This document shows positions 26,846-39,077 of a stretch of DNA of 39,077 nt, piece by piece; position 1 is the stretch's first letter; every line of letters starts with the position of its first letter. The position numbers and the translations under genes were made by a program. The notes below the pieces were generated by a model. It was given only the letters and a program-made list of their open reading frames with translations. It was not told the DNA's origin and ran no database searches. This DNA comes from a virus (Duplodnaviria; Caudoviricetes), in the IMG/VR virus record IMGVR_UViG_3300014775_001014, positions 1 to 39,077 of that record. One strand, written 5' to 3'.

Positions 26846-27176
26846 CTATACAGCAATTTATGACTTCCCCCCTCTGAAAAGAGGGGATAGCTTCGATCCA
26901 AAAAATTTTGAGATTCTAATAAATGGCGACCCACCACTTCATGAAATAACAGAAGTAAAACTAGAATTAAGAAAACATAAGAAAGTATATAAAAGATATA
27001 TAAATACTGATAACAGCATAGTGATTACTGGCCCTGGAACCTTTTATATTCCAGGTCACATCTTAGATATTCCAGAGGGCGAATATAATTATGACCTTCA
27101 AATTACATATGCAAATTCAGTTGTTAAGACTTATATGAAAGGTATATGGAAAATATGGGAGGATTATACTAAATGA
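26826..27176 (+). CDS. Small Ig-like fibre adaptor/attachment protein (BppU N-terminal-like)
   Basis: KRGDSF...GEYNYDLQIT...VKTYMKG.W pattern, typical of small proteins preceding phage fibres; ATGA overlap with the fibre gene. Confidence 0.55.
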   Translation: MRTLPNDYTAIYDFPPLKRGDSFDPKNFEILINGDPPLHEITEVKLELRKHKKVYKRYINTDNSIVITGPGTFYIPGHILDIPEGEYNYDLQITYANSVVKTYMKGIWKIWEDYTK

Positions 27177-29500
27177 GCCCTACAAATATTAGTCTTCTTG
27201 GGAACGATAACCCAGACCTGATAACTATAAATGTTATCGATGGTGTTCCTCACAATCCAGTATCGACAGTTGATAGTCCTGAAATTGCTCTAACTTTAAA
27301 TAATCAGGAGTTAACTGCTAATATAAATAATTATTCTGTAGAAGAGATAAAGTTATCTACAGAATTGGCAGAAAAAATAAATGATACATCTTTTGTTGGT
27401 AGTGTTACAGTAAGCAATACTAGCGGAGTATTTTTAGAAAAAGGAACTCCGGTATTTATATCTGGAAATGACGGAACCAACATAGAAGTTGGGAAAGCAG
27501 ATATTAACAACTCAGCAAATTTAATTCTTGATGAAGATATTATAGCAGGTAATACTGGCTCTGCTAAGCTCTACGGTACAGTAAACGATATATCTGTTAT
27601 AGATGCCTCAATATACTCCCCAGGTGATATTTTATGGCTTGCTGAGACTGGTGGTTTAACCAATATAAAGCCCTCTACAACTACCGTCCAGAGAATAGGT
27701 GTAATTACTTCTTCAGACCCTTTAAATAACCTTATAGGAATATTTTTCTATAATGACCTTACTGTAGGTGATGTTGCCCTCACTAGCATAACAGATTATG
27801 CCACATCAGCACAAGGCGCTTTAGCTGATTCTGCTTTGCAACCAGAGGATATAGGTGTATCCGTTCAAGGTTTCTCCACAATTTTAGATAACACTACAGA
27901 ATCTTTTATAACTGAACATAAAGACAAAATAGACTTAATATCGGTGACGGAGCCTGTAGATTTAGATGTAGCAAAGCCAAATTATATAGACGAATATAGA
28001 GACTCTTCTGTAGGGGTCAATGATGTAATTCCTGTTCATTATTTTGGTGCTTTTGGTGCAGAAACAAATATTGACACTGCTATTTTACCTAAGGGAGATG
28101 GTAGTTTCAGTTTAGATGTACCTGATGGTACTGTCACTGGTGGTAATAAGAGAGGAAGACAATCTGTAGATTTACAACAAAGTAGACTTACTGCTAACCA
28201 AGTAGCTTCTGGGGATTTATCATTTGCCGCCGGTTACAGAAATACAGTTACCACTGATGGCTTCGCTTTAGGGTTTAGTAATACTACTAATGCTGAAAAG
28301 GGAGGCGCTATTGGTGCTGGAAATAGTGTCGATGGTTATTCTTCAGTAGCTATTGGTTTAAATAATACCATTACTAATAGTAGTGGTATAGGTAGAAATT
28401 ATATATTTGGTAGCTCTAATACACTAAGTGACACCGATTATGCGGTTTTATTAGGAACAGGTAATACTATTCAAAGTGCTAGTGCTTATTCTACGGTAGC
28501 TGGTGGCAGAGCTAGTACTATAGACGGAAGTACTTATAGCTTTATAGGTTCTTCTAATATTAGTAGTATCACAAACTCTGCAAACAGTTCTATTGTTAGT
28601 GCTAATGGAGCTTCTATAGTCAATAGTAGAGATTCTTTTATAGGTGTTGGGCTTGGTTTAAGTATTACTGATTCTGCATATAGCTCTATACTTTCTGGTC
28701 AAAATAATGCTATTGATCCTGGAGGTTCAAATTCTAATTATTCTACTATAGTAGGTGGATTTGGTAATAATATTAGTGAAGGGCCTAGAAGTGCACTTCT
28801 GGGGGGAGTTAATAATATAGTTACAGGATTTAATTCTGCAATCCTTGCTGGTGATAGTAATACTATAAATGGAAATAATAATGTTGCTTCTGGGTTCCAA
28901 AATAATGTTACTGGTGGGCGCTCTTTTGCTTTTGGTTCGGAAAATCAAATAAATGCTAGTTATTCTATTTCATTAGGTTCTGCTAATGAAATTACCACTG
29001 ATAGAACTATCGTCTTAGGTGATAATGGTAAATCCTTCATTCCTTTTAGTTCTATATTTTCTTCGGGGTCAGAAGTAAGTACAGGAGATTCCCAAAGAGT
29101 TGAATTATTACTTAGAAATGTAACAGTAGATAACACTACAGCTACTTTATTAACTACTACTAGTGCAAATACATTTTCTAATAACAATACATTAGTGCCT
29201 CAGGATAATTCTGTAATGGCTGTTGAATGCAGAGTAACAGCAATTCAACAAGGAACTACAAATATTGCCGAATGGATAGTTAAATTTACCTTAGCTAAAG
29301 GAGTAGGAGCAGGAACTATTGTTTCTAAAGGTATTGTAGATGTAGTAGAAAGACATAACGATTTAGGATTAAATATTGATGAAACTTCGTTATTTGTAGA
29401 TGCTACAAATGGTGGAGCTACTTTAAGAGTTTATGGTTTAGCAGCTACTAATATTAAATGGTTAGCTCATTGTGTATGTACTGAAAATATTTACGTTTAG
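27173..29500 (+). CDS. Fibre/spike protein with Ser/Gly/Asn-rich beta-helix (YadA-head-like) repeats
   Basis: DYATSAQGALADSALQP fibre motif; many ~14-16 aa 'S.I.GG..N.I' repeats in the C-terminal half. Confidence 0.75.
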   Translation: MSPTNISLLGNDNPDLITINVIDGVPHNPVSTVDSPEIALTLNNQELTANINNYSVEEIKLSTELAEKINDTSFVGSVTVSNTSGVFLEKGTPVFISGNDGTNIEVGKADINNSANLILDEDIIAGNTGSAKLYGTVNDISVIDASIYSPGDILWLAETGGLTNIKPSTTTVQRIGVITSSDPLNNLIGIFFYNDLTVGDVALTSITDYATSAQGALADSALQPEDIGVSVQGFSTILDNTTESFITEHKDKIDLISVTEPVDLDVAKPNYIDEYRDSSVGVNDVIPVHYFGAFGAETNIDTAILPKGDGSFSLDVPDGTVTGGNKRGRQSVDLQQSRLTANQVASGDLSFAAGYRNTVTTDGFALGFSNTTNAEKGGAIGAGNSVDGYSSVAIGLNNTITNSSGIGRNYIFGSSNTLSDTDYAVLLGTGNTIQSASAYSTVAGGRASTIDGSTYSFIGSSNISSITNSANSSIVSANGASIVNSRDSFIGVGLGLSITDSAYSSILSGQNNAIDPGGSNSNYSTIVGGFGNNISEGPRSALLGGVNNIVTGFNSAILAGDSNTINGNNNVASGFQNNVTGGRSFAFGSENQINASYSISLGSANEITTDRTIVLGDNGKSFIPFSSIFSSGSEVSTGDSQRVELLLRNVTVDNTTATLLTTTSANTFSNNNTLVPQDNSVMAVECRVTAIQQGTTNIAEWIVKFTLAKGVGAGTIVSKGIVDVVERHNDLGLNIDETSLFVDATNGGATLRVYGLAATNIKWLAHCVCTENIYV

Positions 29501-29512
29501 GTGAGAGAGATT

Positions 29513-29605
29513 TTAACTGACGGTGGGGGTGTGGGGGAGGCTATAAGTCCCACGCTCTAATCTGTGATTGAGCGTTGGGATACATGGACATTCCCCACAA
29601 ACAAT
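29513..29605 (+). repeat. 93-bp direct repeat copy 1 (IS200/IS605 left end)
   Basis: TTAACTGACGGTGGGGGTGTGGGGGAGGCTATAAGTCCCACGCTCTAATCTGTGATTGAGCGTTGGGATACATGGACATTCCCCACAAACAAT. Confidence 0.92.
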
Positions 29606-29612
29606 GGCTATG

Positions 29613-29621
29613 TGCTATAAT
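29613..29621 (+). promoter_or_regulatory. Extended -10 promoter (tnpB promoter)
   Basis: TG-C-TATAAT, a perfect extended -10, just inside left end copy 1. Confidence 0.65.
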
Positions 29622-29648
29622 TTTATCACTAGGTCACTTTATGGCAAT

Positions 29649-29886
29649 ATGCTTAGAGCGAATCAATACCAAGAAACCAACCAATCAAGCCATTGGTTTA
29701 GACTTAGGCATCTCCCATTTCTACACCGATTCTGACGGTAATCAAGTCGATTATCCCCAATACCTAAGACAGTCTGAAAAGCAACTAAAGCGGGAACAGA
29801 GACGATTATCCAAGAAACAAAAAGGTTCTAAGAATCGAGCTAAGGCGAGGAATCGCCTGGGTCACAGACATCTAAAAATTCAACGC
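29649..29886 (+). pseudogene. tnpB: Internally deleted and 3'-truncated TnpB (IS605 OrfB) fragment
   Basis: PTNQAIGLDLGISHFYTDSDG (RuvC-I) and YLRQSEKQLKREQRRLSKKQKGSKNRAKARNRL (bridge-helix region); RuvC-II/III and zinc ribbon absent; probable original start ATG-CTT-AGA-GCG (MLRA) at 29649 is out of frame. Confidence 0.88.
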
Positions 29887-29985
29887 CATTTCGTTCTTTC
29901 TAATCCTGTTTTTATGGCTTTTTCCAAGGTTACTCCATACTTACGATTTGATTTCGCAAGTATCTATTCAATATCAATCAAGGTT

Positions 29986-30183
29986 ATGAAAATTCAAAAC
30001 TTATTAATTGCAACCCTAAGCTTTTTTCTCTCTGGCAGCCATACCGTCATTCAGGCCCAGACGATTCCCCAATTGTTATCACTTACGGATCAAGAATCCA
30101 CAACTCAAAATGATTCTGGTGACTTTTTTGAGCAAGACAGTTGCTGTATACGCCAGCGGCGGGGATGTGGTCGTCGCTGTTAA
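29986..30183 (+). CDS. 65-aa secreted peptide precursor, PatX-like architecture (signal peptide, acidic spacer, CCIRQRRGCGRRC)
   Basis: AAGG before ATG 29986; MKIQNLLIATLSFFLSGSHTVIQA resembles a Sec signal; C-terminal RGCGRR resembles RG(S/T)GRR. Confidence 0.55.
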   Translation: MKIQNLLIATLSFFLSGSHTVIQAQTIPQLLSLTDQESTTQNDSGDFFEQDSCCIRQRRGCGRRC

Positions 30184-30272
30184 CTGACGGTGGGGGTGTG
30201 GGGAGGCTATAAGTCCCAACGCTCTAATCTGTGATTGAGCGTTGGGATACATGGACATTCCCCACAAACAAT
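30180..30272 (+). repeat. 93-bp direct repeat copy 2 (IS200/IS605 left end)
   Basis: Differs from copy 1 by two single-base indels; perfect 11-bp stem TCCCAACGCTC/GAGCGTTGGGA (30214-30247) and outer stem TGTGGGGA/TCCCCACA. Confidence 0.92.
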
Positions 30273-30352
30273 AGCGAATTTGTGGAACCATCCTGAACCT
30301 AACAATTTTCTTAAAACAGCAGCTTCACCATATAATAAGGTCATGTCAGGTT

Positions 30353-30360
30353 TATAAATA
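30353..30360 (+). promoter_or_regulatory. T4-type late promoter
   Basis: Exact TATAAATA 26 nt upstream of ATG 30387. Confidence 0.7.
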
Positions 30361-30386
30361 ATTAAAAATTTAAAAAATCTACACAA

Positions 30387-30533
30387 ATGGAAGACCTTAA
30401 ACAAAAGCTATTAGTACTTATTGATGCCTACGCATCCGCTAAATTTTCGGATAATAATTATTTAATGGCTAAAATGGCAGATGAAATAAAGCAGTTTCTA
30501 GAAAGTGTAGAAATAGCTGAGAAGAGCGAATAA
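30387..30533 (+). CDS. 48-aa helical protein, absent from the ORF track
   Basis: MEDLKQKLLVLIDAYASAKFSDNNYLMAKMADEIKQFLESVEIAEKSE; follows a late promoter and ends 1 nt before the next ATG. Confidence 0.7.
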   Translation: MEDLKQKLLVLIDAYASAKFSDNNYLMAKMADEIKQFLESVEIAEKSE

Positions 30534-30534
30534 G

Positions 30535-31089
30535 ATGCCAAGAAAATATATAAGGGATTTTGCCGGAACAAAAATACAAAAGGTAGCCATAGAATCCGGT
30601 AGTACTGGTGGAAGTATAATAGAGGGGAGAGCCCCAATATTAACTGGAACTAGAAGCATTCACACCACAAAATCTGTTAACAGTGGAGTTACTGTTCCAC
30701 TCCTTTCAATTAGACCAAAACTTACATTTAAAGGACAACCTAACCATTCCTGGGTAAGACTTAAAGATTTTCAAATATCTACTTCTACTAATGGAGTATA
30801 TCAGCTAATTTATACTCCAGTATTGAGTGGAGAAGTTTGGACAGATGTTGATACGGATAATAGCCTCGTAGAATACGATTCTACGGCTTCTAGCTACACT
30901 AATGGATACATTCTTTATACTGGGGTTATAAACGCCGCTAAAGGGGCAGATAAGCTCACTATACCAAACATTAGAGACCCATTATATGTCTCTTCTGATG
31001 ATACAGAGACTTATCATTTAACCATAGTATTTACACCAGACTCTAACGGAACAGTAACTTCAGCAATAAATTGGGAGGAAATCTACTAA
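30535..31089 (+). CDS. Putative virion structural protein, 184 aa
   Basis: Late cluster; beta-rich 'VPLLSIRPK...S.VEYD.TA...AINWEEI' pattern of the kind seen in phage structural proteins. Confidence 0.6.
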   Translation: MPRKYIRDFAGTKIQKVAIESGSTGGSIIEGRAPILTGTRSIHTTKSVNSGVTVPLLSIRPKLTFKGQPNHSWVRLKDFQISTSTNGVYQLIYTPVLSGEVWTDVDTDNSLVEYDSTASSYTNGYILYTGVINAAKGADKLTIPNIRDPLYVSSDDTETYHLTIVFTPDSNGTVTSAINWEEIY

Positions 31090-36512: not shown

Positions 36513-39077
36513 ATGGCTGACAATAAACTCGATAAATTGGGTTATGTAATTAAAGACCCAAAGTATAAAACTAAATCTGATTCTGTTATATCTCCTGTAG
36601 AACCTGAAGACGAATTTTTTTCAGCAAGAATATCTAACGGTGGATACTTTGGATATTACTTAGAGCAAGGAACTGGGAAACAAGACGAGTTCCATCTAAT
36701 ACGAATATACAGAGATATGGCACTGTTGCCTGAAGTTGATTCCGCAGTAGATGATGTGGTAAATGAAGCCATAACTTCGGATAGTGACGAGCCTCCTGTG
36801 CTTATTGATTTGTCTAAATTACCTGCTAAAGATACTCTTAAAAATAAAATTCGAGAAGAGTTCGATTATATTTTATCTTTGATGGACTTTGATGATAAAT
36901 GCCATCAGATATTTAGAAGATGGTATGTTGATGGTCGTTTATTCTTTCATAAAATAATCGATTTAGAGAAACCAAAAGAAGGGATTAAAGAGCTTCGATA
37001 TATTGACCCATTAAAAATTAAGAAAGTAAGAGTCAAGAAAGAACAAAAACCAGAAGAAAAGAGAAATTCTCTAGACTTTGGAGAAATTGAAGAGTTTTTT
37101 GTTTATAAGCCTTCTGGATTTTTAAACCAGTATGCCACAATTTCTAAAACTGGTAAGACTATAAAATTATCTAAGGATGCTGTAACTTTTGTTCCATCTG
37201 GTGCTATAGACTACAATAACAACAATGTAGTTAGCTATTTACATAAAGCAATCAAAGCTTCAAATCAACTTCAAATGATTGAAGATAGTATTGTGATATA
37301 TCGTCTTTGCTTGGCAGAATACAGCAGAGTGGCAACTCCATTCGGATACAAATATATTCAGGATATAACTCCTGGAGATATAGTATATTGCTACGACAAC
37401 AGGAAGAAAGGATTAGTAACTACGAAGGTCACTAATCGGTGGATGACAGGCGTTAAAGATACTTATACGGTATCCTCAGAGCATCATAGTATTACTGGTA
37501 CTGATACTCATCCAATTCTCGTAAGAGATTTGTCTACCAACGAAGTTAAGTATGTACCAATCAAAGATATTGTTCCAGAGAAACAATGCTTTGTTTATGA
37601 ATGTCCCCGTAAAACCGAATTAAAACAGCCTTTAGATACATATAAAACATTAAATACACCAGAGTACTTAAACGAAGATTTGGCATTATTACTTGGTTTA
37701 TTTTCTGGTGAAAATTGTCAGGTAGAAGATGATAGAATCTTAGTTTATATAGACAAATACGGTTCTAGAGGTGAAATTTACACTTCATTAATCGAGAAAA
37801 CCTTTCCAGATTATTCTATTATATCTGACCCCTTAGACAATTATGATTTGTATGTATTTAAAAATGAAGATTTAAAATCTTTACTCGATTACTTAAACCT
37901 GAAAGGTTATAGTGAAGAGCAAAGAGTTCCTTCTTGGCTCTATACCTCTCCTTTAGGAGTAAAATTAAACTACGTTTATGGTCTTACAGATAAGTTTGGA
38001 GATAGAGATCATATAGACGGATACTCCATAGAATATACTCATCCATCTATAACTTTCTTAGAAGACTTAAAAGAGATTTGGACATCCATTGGGATGACAT
38101 CTTCCGTAATAACTTATGTAGATTGGGCAAAAACCTATTCTATTAAATTTGGCTTTGACCCACTACCAAAGTTTGAAAGAATAAAGTCAGTTACTAAAAG
38201 TGATAGCTCTCGTGTTTATGACATTGAAGTAGAACATGAGAAACACAATTTTGTTGCTAATGGAATAATAGTACACAACTCCCGTGCCCCTGAAAGAAGA
38301 ATCTTTTATGTTGATGTTGGAAATCTACCAACTCCTAAAGCTTCTCAATACATGAAAGAAATCATGAATCGTTACCGTACTAAAATCCAGTATGATGCTA
38401 AAACTGGATATATCAGAGACGGTAAAAAGCACATGTCTATGCTGGAAGATTTCTTCATTCCCCGTAAGGACGGATGTTTTTCATTAGACACCCGTATAAA
38501 GCTCTTAGATGGGCGTGATGTAGAGCTAGGACAGCTCATAGTTGAACACAAAGAAGGTAAACAAAATTGGACATATTCTGTAGCTCCCGATGGTTCTATA
38601 GTTCCGGGTCTTATATCTTGGGCAGGGGTAACTAGAAATAATGCAGAAGTAGTCAAAGTTACTCTAGACAATGGTGAAGAGATTATTTCTACACCAGACC
38701 ACAAATTTATTCTCAGAAATGGGAAAAGGATTCAAGCCAAAGATTTAACTGAAGGCGATTCTTTAATGCCACTAGACATTATTAATGAAAAATTAATTCG
38801 TGGTAGTAAGCAGAATCCCTATTTTAAAGTTAAATCTAATAAAACTAATAAACATCAAGCAGTACATAGAATAATTCATGAATTTTTTAATGAGCCCCAA
38901 GCTTCAAACGAAGTTATCCACCATGTAGATTTTGATAGATATAACAACAATCCTGATAACTTAGTTGTTATGGATAAAAAGGAACATATAGCATTACATG
39001 GTAAGTCCAGCAGATGCGCTTGGGAAAATGGTAATTATGAATTGCATTGTAAGCGCCTTTCTGAGTCTGGAAAAAAA
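36513..39077 (+). CDS. gp20: Portal vertex protein gp20 with two inteins (3'-truncated by window end; absent from ORF track)
   Basis: Translated by hand with no stop to the window end: YRDMALLPEVDSAVDDVVNEAI, FRRWYVDGR, GIKELRYIDP, SYLHKAIKASNQLQMIEDSIVIYRL | SRAPERRIFYVDVGNLP...HMSMLEDFFIPRKDG. Confidence 0.96.
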   Translation, partial: MADNKLDKLGYVIKDPKYKTKSDSVISPVEPEDEFFSARISNGGYFGYYLEQGTGKQDEFHLIRIYRDMALLPEVDSAVDDVVNEAITSDSDEPPVLIDLSKLPAKDTLKNKIREEFDYILSLMDFDDKCHQIFRRWYVDGRLFFHKIIDLEKPKEGIKELRYIDPLKIKKVRVKKEQKPEEKRNSLDFGEIEEFFVYKPSGFLNQYATISKTGKTIKLSKDAVTFVPSGAIDYNNNNVVSYLHKAIKASNQLQMIEDSIVIYRLCLAEYSRVATPFGYKYIQDITPGDIVYCYDNRKKGLVTTKVTNRWMTGVKDTYTVSSEHHSITGTDTHPILVRDLSTNEVKYVPIKDIVPEKQCFVYECPRKTELKQPLDTYKTLNTPEYLNEDLALLLGLFSGENCQVEDDRILVYIDKYGSRGEIYTSLIEKTFPDYSIISDPLDNYDLYVFKNEDLKSLLDYLNLKGYSEEQRVPSWLYTSPLGVKLNYVYGLTDKFGDRDHIDGYSIEYTHPSITFLEDLKEIWTSIGMTSSVITYVDWAKTYSIKFGFDPLPKFERIKSVTKSDSSRVYDIEVEHEKHNFVANGIIVHNSRAPERRIFYVDVGNLPTPKASQYMKEIMNRYRTKIQYDAKTGYIRDGKKHMSMLEDFFIPRKDGCFSLDTRIKLLDGRDVELGQLIVEHKEGKQNWTYSVAPDGSIVPGLISWAGVTRNNAEVVKVTLDNGEEIISTPDHKFILRNGKRIQAKDLTEGDSLMPLDIINEKLIRGSKQNPYFKVKSNKTNKHQAVHRIIHEFFNEPQASNEVIHHVDFDRYNNNPDNLVVMDKKEHIALHGKSSRCAWENGNYELHCKRLSESGKK
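37308..38279 (+). mobile_element. Intein 1 in gp20 (324 aa) with degenerate LAGLIDADG domain
   Basis: Block A CLAEYSRVATPFG, block B GTDTHPILV, block F VYDIEVEHEKHNFVANG, block G IIVHN|S; central LALLLGLFSGEN, RVPSWL, YVYGLTDKFG. Confidence 0.95.
38475..39077 (+). mobile_element. Intein 2 in gp20 with HNH endonuclease (incomplete in window)
   Basis: Block A CFSLDTRIKLLDG, block B STPDHKFILRNG, AKDLTEGDSL; HNH VHRIIH...VIHHVDFDRYNNNPDNL...EHIALH (38862-38999). Confidence 0.92.

What the first reader, a model, noticed from the sequence alone, without database searches (positions are those of the whole stretch)
29986..30183. Phage-borne PatX-like peptide (RGCGRR): possible viral interference with HetR signalling
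Seen: MKIQNLLIATLSFFLSGSHTVIQAQTIPQLLSLTDQESTTQNDSGDFFEQDSCCIRQRRGCGRRC, i.e. signal-like N-terminus, polar spacer and C-terminal RGCGRR. Established: PatS, HetN and PatX inhibit the heterocyst regulator HetR through RG(S/T)GR, and PatX proteins are short with an N-terminal signal peptide and the motif near the C-terminus. Inference: a captured patX-like gene could let the phage suppress differentiation and keep cells vegetative. Caveats: Cys replaces Ser/Thr, I do not know whether that is tolerated, and no DIF1 (TCCGGA) motif is present upstream. I know of no described phage-encoded PatX/PatS.
Basis: partly seen in the sequence, partly recalled or inferred. Interest (0 to 1): 0.8.

Follow-up and report, generated by a model that had tools for sequence, protein, structure and literature searches.

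The report
Transposon-captured PatX-like peptide in cyanophage
A T4-like virus carries, between two transposon ends, a small gene with bacterial rather than viral codon usage whose likely exported product ends in a one-residue variant (RGCGR) of the signal that filamentous cyanobacteria use to switch off their developmental regulator HetR, so the virus may have picked up a host cell-to-cell signal, though binding is untested.

Summary
The 65-codon ORF is real. It is foreign to the phage: its codon usage is host-like, and 0 of 69 phage gene chunks reach its score. It lies between two copies of an IS605/IS1341-type left end, behind a broken tnpB. Public contigs show it intact in 4 of 4 runs laid, from 3 studies. 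In one run a second context puts a gene ending in canonical ERGSGR-stop about 105 nt upstream, pointing to a tandem PatX-like cluster. It is not a PatX member. Its motif is RGCGR, the PatX models miss it, it has no DIF1 box, and no homologue was found. The transposon's closest relatives lie in hetR-bearing genomes; those named are non-heterocystous filaments, so heterocyst suppression is unlikely. Best reading: a transposon-captured, cysteine-variant PatX-like precursor that would be exported and clipped to damp HetR (0.35). Rivals are a neutral passenger (0.3) and another receptor (0.25). The scan has noted phage RG(S/T)GR peptides before on other DNA (unchecked notes); I found none in print. 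New variant of a known kind; interest 0.5.

The parts
29513..29517 (+). TTAAC target site of the first IS605-family insertion, 13 nt after the stop of the 775-aa fibre-like gene
   Evidence: TTAAC precedes the end in the 12 full left-end matches of 17 hits listed (offset by one base in three)
29518..29603 (+). IS605/IS1341-type left end, copy 1 (DNA hairpin, z -3.65)
   Evidence: 78-90% identical to left ends upstream of TnpB genes in cyanobacterial genomes
29613..29621 (+). extended -10-like TGCTATAAT, the likely tnpB promoter; could drive read-through into the ORF (inferred)
   Evidence: seen; the consensus scan found no + strand sigma-70 site in 29400-30600
29641..29886 (+). internally deleted tnpB remnant (RuvC-I to bridge helix), open and in frame with the ORF
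   Evidence: PF01385 E 8.6e-18; NF040570 E 5.6e-18, far below cut-off; 56-65% identical to cyanobacterial TnpBs
29881..29985 (+). captured upstream spacer; at 29881 a second contig in run X1 enters from a gene ending AFERGSGR-stop
   Evidence: tables 7 and 8 (depth 101 to 144 at this node); linker scores non-coding
29986..30183 (+). 65-aa PatX-like ORF: signal-like residues 1-24, polar spacer, Cys53-Cys54, RGCGR at 59-63, Arg64-Cys65
   Evidence: covered in runs X1, X2, X3, X5
30180..30184 (+). second TTAAC target site; it contains the ORF's stop codon, so the stop is flank DNA, not made by the insertion (inferred from IS605 biology)
30185..30272 (+). IS left end, copy 2 (hairpin z -6.0); differs from copy 1 by two single-base indels that run X3 lacks
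   Evidence: table 4
30324..30328 (+). TTCAC, the last letters of this IS family's right end; run X5 has a right-end hairpin joined here
   Evidence: table 7; right ends ending GGGTAGTTCAC in 5 of 12 left-end loci examined

Best explanation
A T4-like phage carries a small gene with host-like codon usage inside an IS605-family remnant; it was likely captured from a tandem cluster of PatX-like genes of a filamentous, probably non-heterocystous cyanobacterium, and its product would be exported and clipped to a peptide ending RGCGR that is predicted to damp HetR. Shown: the ORF, its foreign codon usage, the flanking IS ends and tnpB remnant, its presence in several phage strains, and a second context behind an ERGSGR-stop gene. 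Inferred: capture by the IS (an insertion at TTAAC right behind the gene, then a join inside tnpB that removed the upstream gene); transcription from the IS promoter or by late read-through; Sec export after about Ala24; processing by the host peptidase PatP, re-entry, and binding in the HetR hood cleft. The effect would be on HetR-controlled behaviour of a non-heterocystous filament (necridia and fragmentation have been proposed), not on heterocysts. Origin as a host gene moved with an IS: about 0.85. Kinship with a PatX-like cluster: about 0.7. The whole chain to HetR: 0.35.
For: Codon score host-versus-phage +14.3; held-out phage chunks -10.0 +/- 4.7, 0 of 69 reach it; host chunks 14.9 +/- 8.8. 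GC 44% versus 35 +/- 4% (2 of 138 chunks reach it). IS anatomy. Loose end reading AFERGSGR-stop at the exact tnpB/cargo node with a depth step of about 43x; chance about 4e-5 for RG[ST]GR plus stop among the 20 listed loose ends (9 more not shown). Layout within the PatX range. PatX-position genes and paralogues of related lineages carry variant copies and Cys pairs: RASGR x4 and PGCDRR (L186), PGCGRR and KGTGRR (G003), RGNGRR, RGGQRR, and a Cys pair just before HRGSGR. 17 of 18 tested genomes with a left-end match carry hetR, of 38 such genomes; the miss, G001, matches the hairpin only. PMC4649674 (passages): the two Arg make eight hydrogen bonds to HetR, the Ser one, and the first residue is free. 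PMC12756182 (part 1 and passages): PatX is Sec-exported and cut by PatP, and HRGTGR binds HetR at 88 nM. ORF intact in 4 of 4 runs laid, 2 synonymous and 1 missense difference; a 2.9-kb deletion variant stops short of it. ESM Atlas nearest clusters are mostly cyanobacterial, including PatX at 0.78, a lead only.
Against: RGCGR occurs in 0 of 54 PatX-like proteins collected (first motif: 51 RGSGR, 1 RGSDR, 1 KGTGR, 1 PGCGR; the set was found with the PatX model, so it is biased). Own PatX profile: -0.2 bits, against 15-60 for 52 left-out PatX and 24.5 for the PGCGRR paralogue; 833 of 1000 shuffles score as well. No significant similarity outside the motif (157 of 500 shuffles reach the best score). 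No homologue in any search. No DIF1 box. Four cysteines would likely form disulfides in the periplasm and could hide Cys61 or block release of a free hexapeptide (inference). The tnpB remnant is also still open, so intactness may reflect recent capture; three SNPs cannot show selection. In Leptolyngbya BL0902 PatX acts largely independently of HetR (PMC11298460, passages). The ERGSGR context rests on one 30-letter loose end in one run, and I could not tell whether it is host or phage DNA. The host is inferred only from IS relatives at 78-90% identity.
Confidence: 0.35

Rival explanations
1. Same origin, but a neutral passenger: the gene came along with an IS605-family element that inserts repeatedly in this stretch of the phage, and it does nothing useful for the virus.
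For: The region is an IS hotspot with at least two insertions and several rearrangements among coexisting strains. The tnpB remnant, which has no function, is also still open. Codon usage is not adapted to the phage. No relative among IMG/VR phages.
Against: The ORF is present in runs of 2019, 2021 and 2023 from 3 studies, survives rearrangements on both sides, and has depth near or above the flanks (X1 147 vs 39 left and 76-98 right; X2 8.6 vs 3-7; X3 3.9 vs 3.9; X5 4.1 vs 5.8); 2 of 3 SNPs are synonymous.
Confidence: 0.3
2. Same origin, but the product is a disulfide-looped exported signal of the wider PatX-like superfamily that binds another receptor (for example a periplasmic sensor domain), not HetR.
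For: Four Cys in the last 13 residues; the Cys-type paralogue in G003 (C-x8-PGCGRR) is not beside hetR, while that genome's hetR-linked gene has KGTGRR. The Atlas ranks two cyanobacterial clusters without the PatX Pfam above PatX (0.87, 0.82), and a 74-aa, 116-member cluster of the same description is also near the G003 paralogue (0.85); leads only. HetR-independent PatX action in PMC11298460. An unchecked scan note (e1-5352170) reports such a case.
Against: No such family or receptor could be assembled here; both Arg and both Gly of the HetR-binding motif are kept; the neighbouring gene is canonical ERGSGR.
Confidence: 0.25
3. One reading: a phage PatX that suppresses heterocyst differentiation in a nitrogen-fixing host to keep cells vegetative.
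For: PatX-like layout and motif; overexpressed PatX blocks heterocysts (PMC7761841, abstract and introduction). Not all 38 IS-bearing genomes were named, so a heterocyst former is not excluded.
Against: The named carriers of the closest IS ends are Microseira, Coleofasciculus, Oscillatoria salina, Microcoleus, Moorena and Desertifilum, none of which forms heterocysts (recalled); the motif is non-canonical; no DIF1 box.
Confidence: 0.06
4. A chance open frame in rearranged DNA; the motif is coincidence.
For: No homologues; no profile hit; RGxGR appears somewhere in 17 of 100 shuffled windows; the scan reads some 250,000 windows.
Against: Frame-specific coding signal, signal-like N-terminus, frame intact across strains, and a canonical ERGSGR-stop gene next to it.
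Confidence: 0.04

Closest known systems
PatX (NCBIfam NF047413, Pfam PF28278; exported HetR-inhibitor precursor of filamentous cyanobacteria)
   Same: Small size, N-terminal signal-like segment, polar spacer, R-G-x-G-R(R) near the C-terminus at the usual distance; next to an ERGSGR gene in one context.
   Different: Cys at the Ser/Thr position plus three more Cys; no profile match; no DIF1 box; not beside hetR here; carried by a phage inside an IS remnant.
Cys-type PatX paralogues found here: P0127 (G003, C-x8-PGCGRR) and the hetR-linked gene named from Oscillatoria salina (L186, PGCDRR plus four RASGR)
   Same: Signal segment, upstream Cys and GC[G/D]RR core.
   Different: Only GCGRR aligns pairwise with P0127; these have Pro, not Arg, before GCGRR; both are unstudied.
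PatS (13-17 aa, C-terminal ERGSGR)
   Same: Related core motif; the upstream gene in the X1 contig ends exactly in ERGSGR-stop.
   Different: The ORF is 65 aa with a signal segment, and the motif is followed by two residues.
IS200/IS605 family, IS1341-like tnpB elements of filamentous cyanobacteria
   Same: TTAAC target, hairpin left end, tnpB, right end finishing GGGTAGTTCAC.
   Different: Here tnpB is deleted, the left end is duplicated round a cargo gene, and only five letters of the right end remain in the window.

Membership tests
PatX | RG(S/T)GR motif near the C-terminus | tested here: not met
   RGCGR; Cys codon unchanged in the runs covering it; 0 of 54 collected PatX-like proteins have RGCGR
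PatX | Match to the family model NF047413 (cut-off 30 bits) | tested here: not met
   no hit at E<=10; own profile of 52 PatX: -0.2 bits versus 15-60 left-out. Some hetR-linked PatX also fall below the cut-off (17 and 15 bits). PF28278 is not in the library.
PatX | Small protein with N-terminal Sec signal peptide and motif about 50-60 residues in | tested here: met
   65 aa, motif start 59, hydrophobic stretch 2.56; heuristic only, export not shown
PatX | DIF1 (TCCGGA) promoter | tested here: not met
   only TCCTGT at 29904 in 29601-29985
PatX | Chromosomal position beside hetR or the conserved upstream oxidoreductase | tested here: inconclusive
   not so in the window; the native context is known only from 30 letters ending ERGSGR-stop
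PatX | Occurs in a hetR-bearing filamentous cyanobacterium | tested here: inconclusive
   host unknown; 17 of 18 tested genomes with the IS end have hetR
PatX | Processed peptide binds HetR and blocks DNA binding or differentiation | not testable with these tools
   needs ITC, EMSA or expression
PatS | 13-17 aa cytoplasmic peptide ending in RGSGR | tested here: not met
   65 aa, signal-like start, RGCGRRC end; NF047415 not hit
IS605/IS1341-type element | Hairpin left end directly 3' of a fixed target (TTAAC) | tested here: met
IS605/IS1341-type element | tnpB gene downstream of the left end | tested here: met
   remnant only; PF01385 65 bits
IS605/IS1341-type element | Hairpin right end | tested here: not met
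   only TTCAC at 30324-30328 in the window; right-end hairpin at that place in run X5
IS605/IS1341-type element | TnpA transposase in cis or in trans | not tested
   not searched; the record is about 22% complete

The most novel reading that the evidence does not exclude
A T4-like phage of non-heterocystous filamentous cyanobacteria has recently captured, by IS605 transposition, a cluster of PatX-like genes (one canonical ERGSGR, one disulfide-gated RGCGR variant) and uses the exported peptides to silence HetR in infected and neighbouring cells, controlling filament breakage. It would be a viral hijack of the oldest cyanobacterial developmental signal, caught in the act, and a handle on what HetR-PatX does where there are no heterocysts.
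Probability: 0.15. Interest if true: 0.85.

Novelty: new variant of a known kind. Interest (0 to 1): 0.5.

Why it matters
[quoted passage not shown] If phages select for PatX-like peptides, these are natural probes of that circuit and a new class of host-signal mimic among phage accessory genes. This locus adds a visible route of capture (IS605 ends, broken tnpB, coexisting rearranged strains) and a Cys variant that tests how strict the RG(S/T)GR code is. Searches for a printed phage PatX/PatS or for RGCGR showed none among the titles listed (20 of 31 listed; 20 of 24; 0 hits; 20 of 347). The library lacks most subscription journals, and Elhai and Khudyakov 2018 was not read.

Tried and rejected
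Homologue searches with the ORF were all blank or chance: 5.8-billion protein index (no candidate, 4-row alignment: 2 hits among 15 candidates, both relatives of P0127); 1.84-billion representatives (self plus 4 repeat proteins); viral, genome and metagenome contigs (0 confirmed of 54, 365 and 595 pattern hits); 401 phylum genomes (40 with E<=0.5, best 0.011; the 25 loci fetched are unrelated); alignment against 201 and 5 genomes; Pfam, NCBIfam, PHROGs; phages and plasmids by blastn (one tnpB hit). The pattern C-x4-RGCGRRC-stop in viral contigs gave 12 loci, none a signal-bearing small gene. The pattern AFERGSGR-stop gave 0 viral and 16 metagenome loci, none resembling the cargo. RGCGR hits fetched from G006, G063 and G030 were not small signal-bearing genes. 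No close phage relative with an empty site was found: TerL at most 58%, neighbour gene blank. Rfam: 2 chance hits. Complex prediction, HetR hood dimer plus residues 36-65: no answer, score 0.01, no evidence either way. No RNA holder listed. Only 4 of the 16 listed runs were laid, so the other 12 are unexamined. Rejected: that the IS created the stop codon (the target is flank DNA); the 199-aa tnpB fusion as the real gene (the linker scores non-coding and the signal segment would be internal); the 29997-30364 joint in X2 (22-letter side, likely foreign). No supplements were opened; those of PMC12756182 list patX in 474 genomes and may hold Cys variants.

Full report
Observation. window:29986-30183 (+) encodes exactly the 65 residues quoted. 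The window is part of a T4-like myovirus morphogenesis region. The ORF lies between the small terminase (phrog_445) and the large terminase, which is at most 56% identical to cultured Synechococcus phages and 58% to IMG/VR contigs. The record is about 22% complete. RGxGR occurs once in the window's six frames (shuffles: mean 0.17), in the tail of 1 of 9 signal-like small ORFs. Only this frame scores as coding.

The gene is foreign. GC is 44% and GC3 0.40, against 35% and 0.25 in phage genes; 2 and 4 of 138 chunks reach these values. The codon score, host versus phage, is +14.3. Held-out phage chunks give -10.0 +/- 4.7, and 0 of 69 reach it; host chunks give 14.9 +/- 8.8 (the host model comes from 104 genes in the cyanobacterial loci I fetched).

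It sits in a transposon remnant. A 91-nt direct repeat brackets it (29513-29603, 30180-30272). The repeat is the left end of an IS605/IS1341-type element. Homologous ends at 78-90% identity follow TTAAC and mostly precede TnpB genes in cyanobacterial genomes, and they fold into hairpins. Behind copy 1 lies a deleted tnpB (29641-29886). The ORF's stop lies inside the second TTAAC. IS605 elements insert 3' of their target (established), so the stop is native. The family's right end finishes GGGTAGTTCAC (5 of 12 loci). Only TTCAC remains at 30324-30328, where run X5 has a right-end hairpin.

Population evidence (4 of 16 listed runs laid, 3 studies; contigs only). All four runs cover the ORF, in whole or part. 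Contigs bridge it to the tnpB side (X5 29775-30156) and to the downstream phage gene (X3 30108-30485), so the arrangement is not an assembly artefact. Three differences lie in the ORF: two synonymous, and Ile55Thr; none touches the motif residues. In X1, depth rises from 39 (fibre gene) through 60 and 101 to 144-147 on the ORF, then falls to 98 and 76. Two of the branches can be read. One joins 26872 to 29773, a 2.9-kb deletion of the fibre gene that spares the ORF. The other enters at 29881, the tnpB/cargo junction, from DNA whose last 30 letters read AFERGSGR-stop, about 105 nt before the ORF, with a depth step of about 43x. The chance of such a motif plus stop among the 20 listed loose ends is about 4e-5. 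I read this as the un-rearranged context: a canonical PatS/PatX-type gene in tandem with the ORF. Tandem patX pairs exist in G057 and G063. It rests on one contig in one run. I could not tell host from phage DNA, and pattern scans did not recover it.

Likely host. The closest left ends lie in genomes whose proteins are named from Microseira, Coleofasciculus, Oscillatoria salina, Microcoleus, Moorena and Desertifilum; these are non-heterocystous filaments (recalled). Of 38 genomes with a left-end match I tested 18; 17 carry hetR, and the miss (G001) matches the hairpin only. The holding runs are labelled aquatic and estuary metagenomes. This is an inference from a mobile element, not a host assignment.

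Is it PatX? It is built like PatX but is not a member. Among 63 PatX-like proteins collected from genomes, length is 56-98, motif start 49-94 and tail 0-35; the ORF has 65, 59 and 2. NF047413 misses it. My profile of 52 PatX gives -0.2 bits, against 15-60 for left-out members. Similarity outside the motif is not significant (157 of 500 shuffles). There is no DIF1 box, and RGCGR is in 0 of 54 proteins. No homologue was found in any collection. Variant motifs do occur naturally in these lineages: PGCGRR in a paralogue and KGTGRR beside hetR in G003, PGCDRR plus four RASGR beside hetR in G267, RGNGRR, RGGQRR and Cys pairs. The ESM Atlas places the ORF near cyanobacterial small-protein clusters (0.87, 0.82) and PatX (0.78); all are under 0.9 and the recognition value is low, so these are leads only.

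Mechanism. In PMC12756182 (part 1 of 8 and passages), PatX is Sec-exported and cut by the pan-cyanobacterial peptidase PatP, and HRGTGR binds HetR at 88 nM. In PMC4649674 (abstract, outline and passages), the hexapeptide binds the hood cleft by backbone bonds and two Arg; the Ser makes one hydrogen bond to Glu253, and the first residue is free. The cleft residues are kept in the G267 HetR. A Cys could be partly tolerated (inference), but four Cys in an oxidising compartment may loop the peptide and block this. In PMC11298460 (passages), PatX acts largely independently of HetR in a non-heterocystous strain. PMC7761841 (part 1 of 7 and passages) defines the motif as RG(S/T)GR. I commit to capture by the IS (about 0.85), kinship with a PatX-like cluster (about 0.7), and export, clipping and damping of HetR in a non-heterocystous host (0.35). 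Rivals: neutral passenger (0.3), another receptor (0.25), heterocyst suppression (0.06), chance (0.04).

Novelty. Literature searches showed no phage PatX/PatS and no cyanobacterial RGCGR among the titles listed (lists partly shown); Elhai and Khudyakov 2018 was not read and no supplements were opened. The scan's own notes report RG(S/T)GR or RGEGR peptides in other phages and elements (12 distinct notes; unchecked and not counted as support); none holds RGCGR or resembles this sequence. What this locus adds is a visible capture route, a Cys variant, and a canonical neighbour. Verdict: new variant of a known kind, interest 0.5; novel case probability 0.15, interest 0.85.

Noticed in passing
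window 26873-29772: A contig in run X1 joins 26872 to 29773: a 2.9-kb deletion variant lacking the 775-aa fibre-like gene, left end 1 and part of tnpB. The fibre gene has about half the depth of the terminase there (39 vs 76), so IS-linked fibre loss may be common in the population.
   Followed up: partly
window 30324 and 30653-30838: Run X5 shows right ends of the same IS family at 30324 and, inverted, at 30653; X1 depth drops from 98 to 40 over 30654-30838 inside the virion structural gene 30535-31089 (phrog_1645). The region is an insertion hotspot.
   Followed up: partly
window 29881 (run X1 loose end): A gene ending in canonical AFERGSGR-stop lies upstream of the cargo in another context; if that DNA is viral, the phage population carries an exact PatS/PatX motif.
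   Followed up: partly
window 36513-39077: The portal gene appears to hold two inteins (Cys...His-Asn-Ser ends, the second with an HNH-like stretch; pattern recalled, not scanned).
   Followed up: no
window 1-39077: Divergent T4-like myovirus (TerL at most 56-58% to anything held) whose IS points to a non-heterocystous filamentous host; I recall few T4-like phages of such hosts.
   Followed up: partly
L186:582-1082 (G267): The gene in the patX position before hetR is a 166-aa precursor with CPGTPGCDRR and four RASGR copies and no RG(S/T)GR; named hypothetical protein of Oscillatoria salina.
   Followed up: partly
L250:365-580 and L320:879-1097 (G003): One genome has KGTGRR in its hetR-linked PatX and a separate Cys-loop paralogue ending PGCGRR; the paralogue has only two close relatives in the protein index.
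   Followed up: partly
window 29584-30183: The public gene call (P0002, 199 aa) fuses the tnpB remnant to the peptide gene, hiding it from annotation.
   Followed up: yes
window 30353-30360: TATAAATA, a T4-type late promoter (consensus recalled), lies after the IS remnant and before the 48-aa ORF 30387-30533.
   Followed up: no
window 27173-29500: 775-aa fibre-like gene with very low GC3 (0.165) and a weak ice-binding beta-roll match (PF21300, E 3.9e-5, under cut-off).
   Followed up: no
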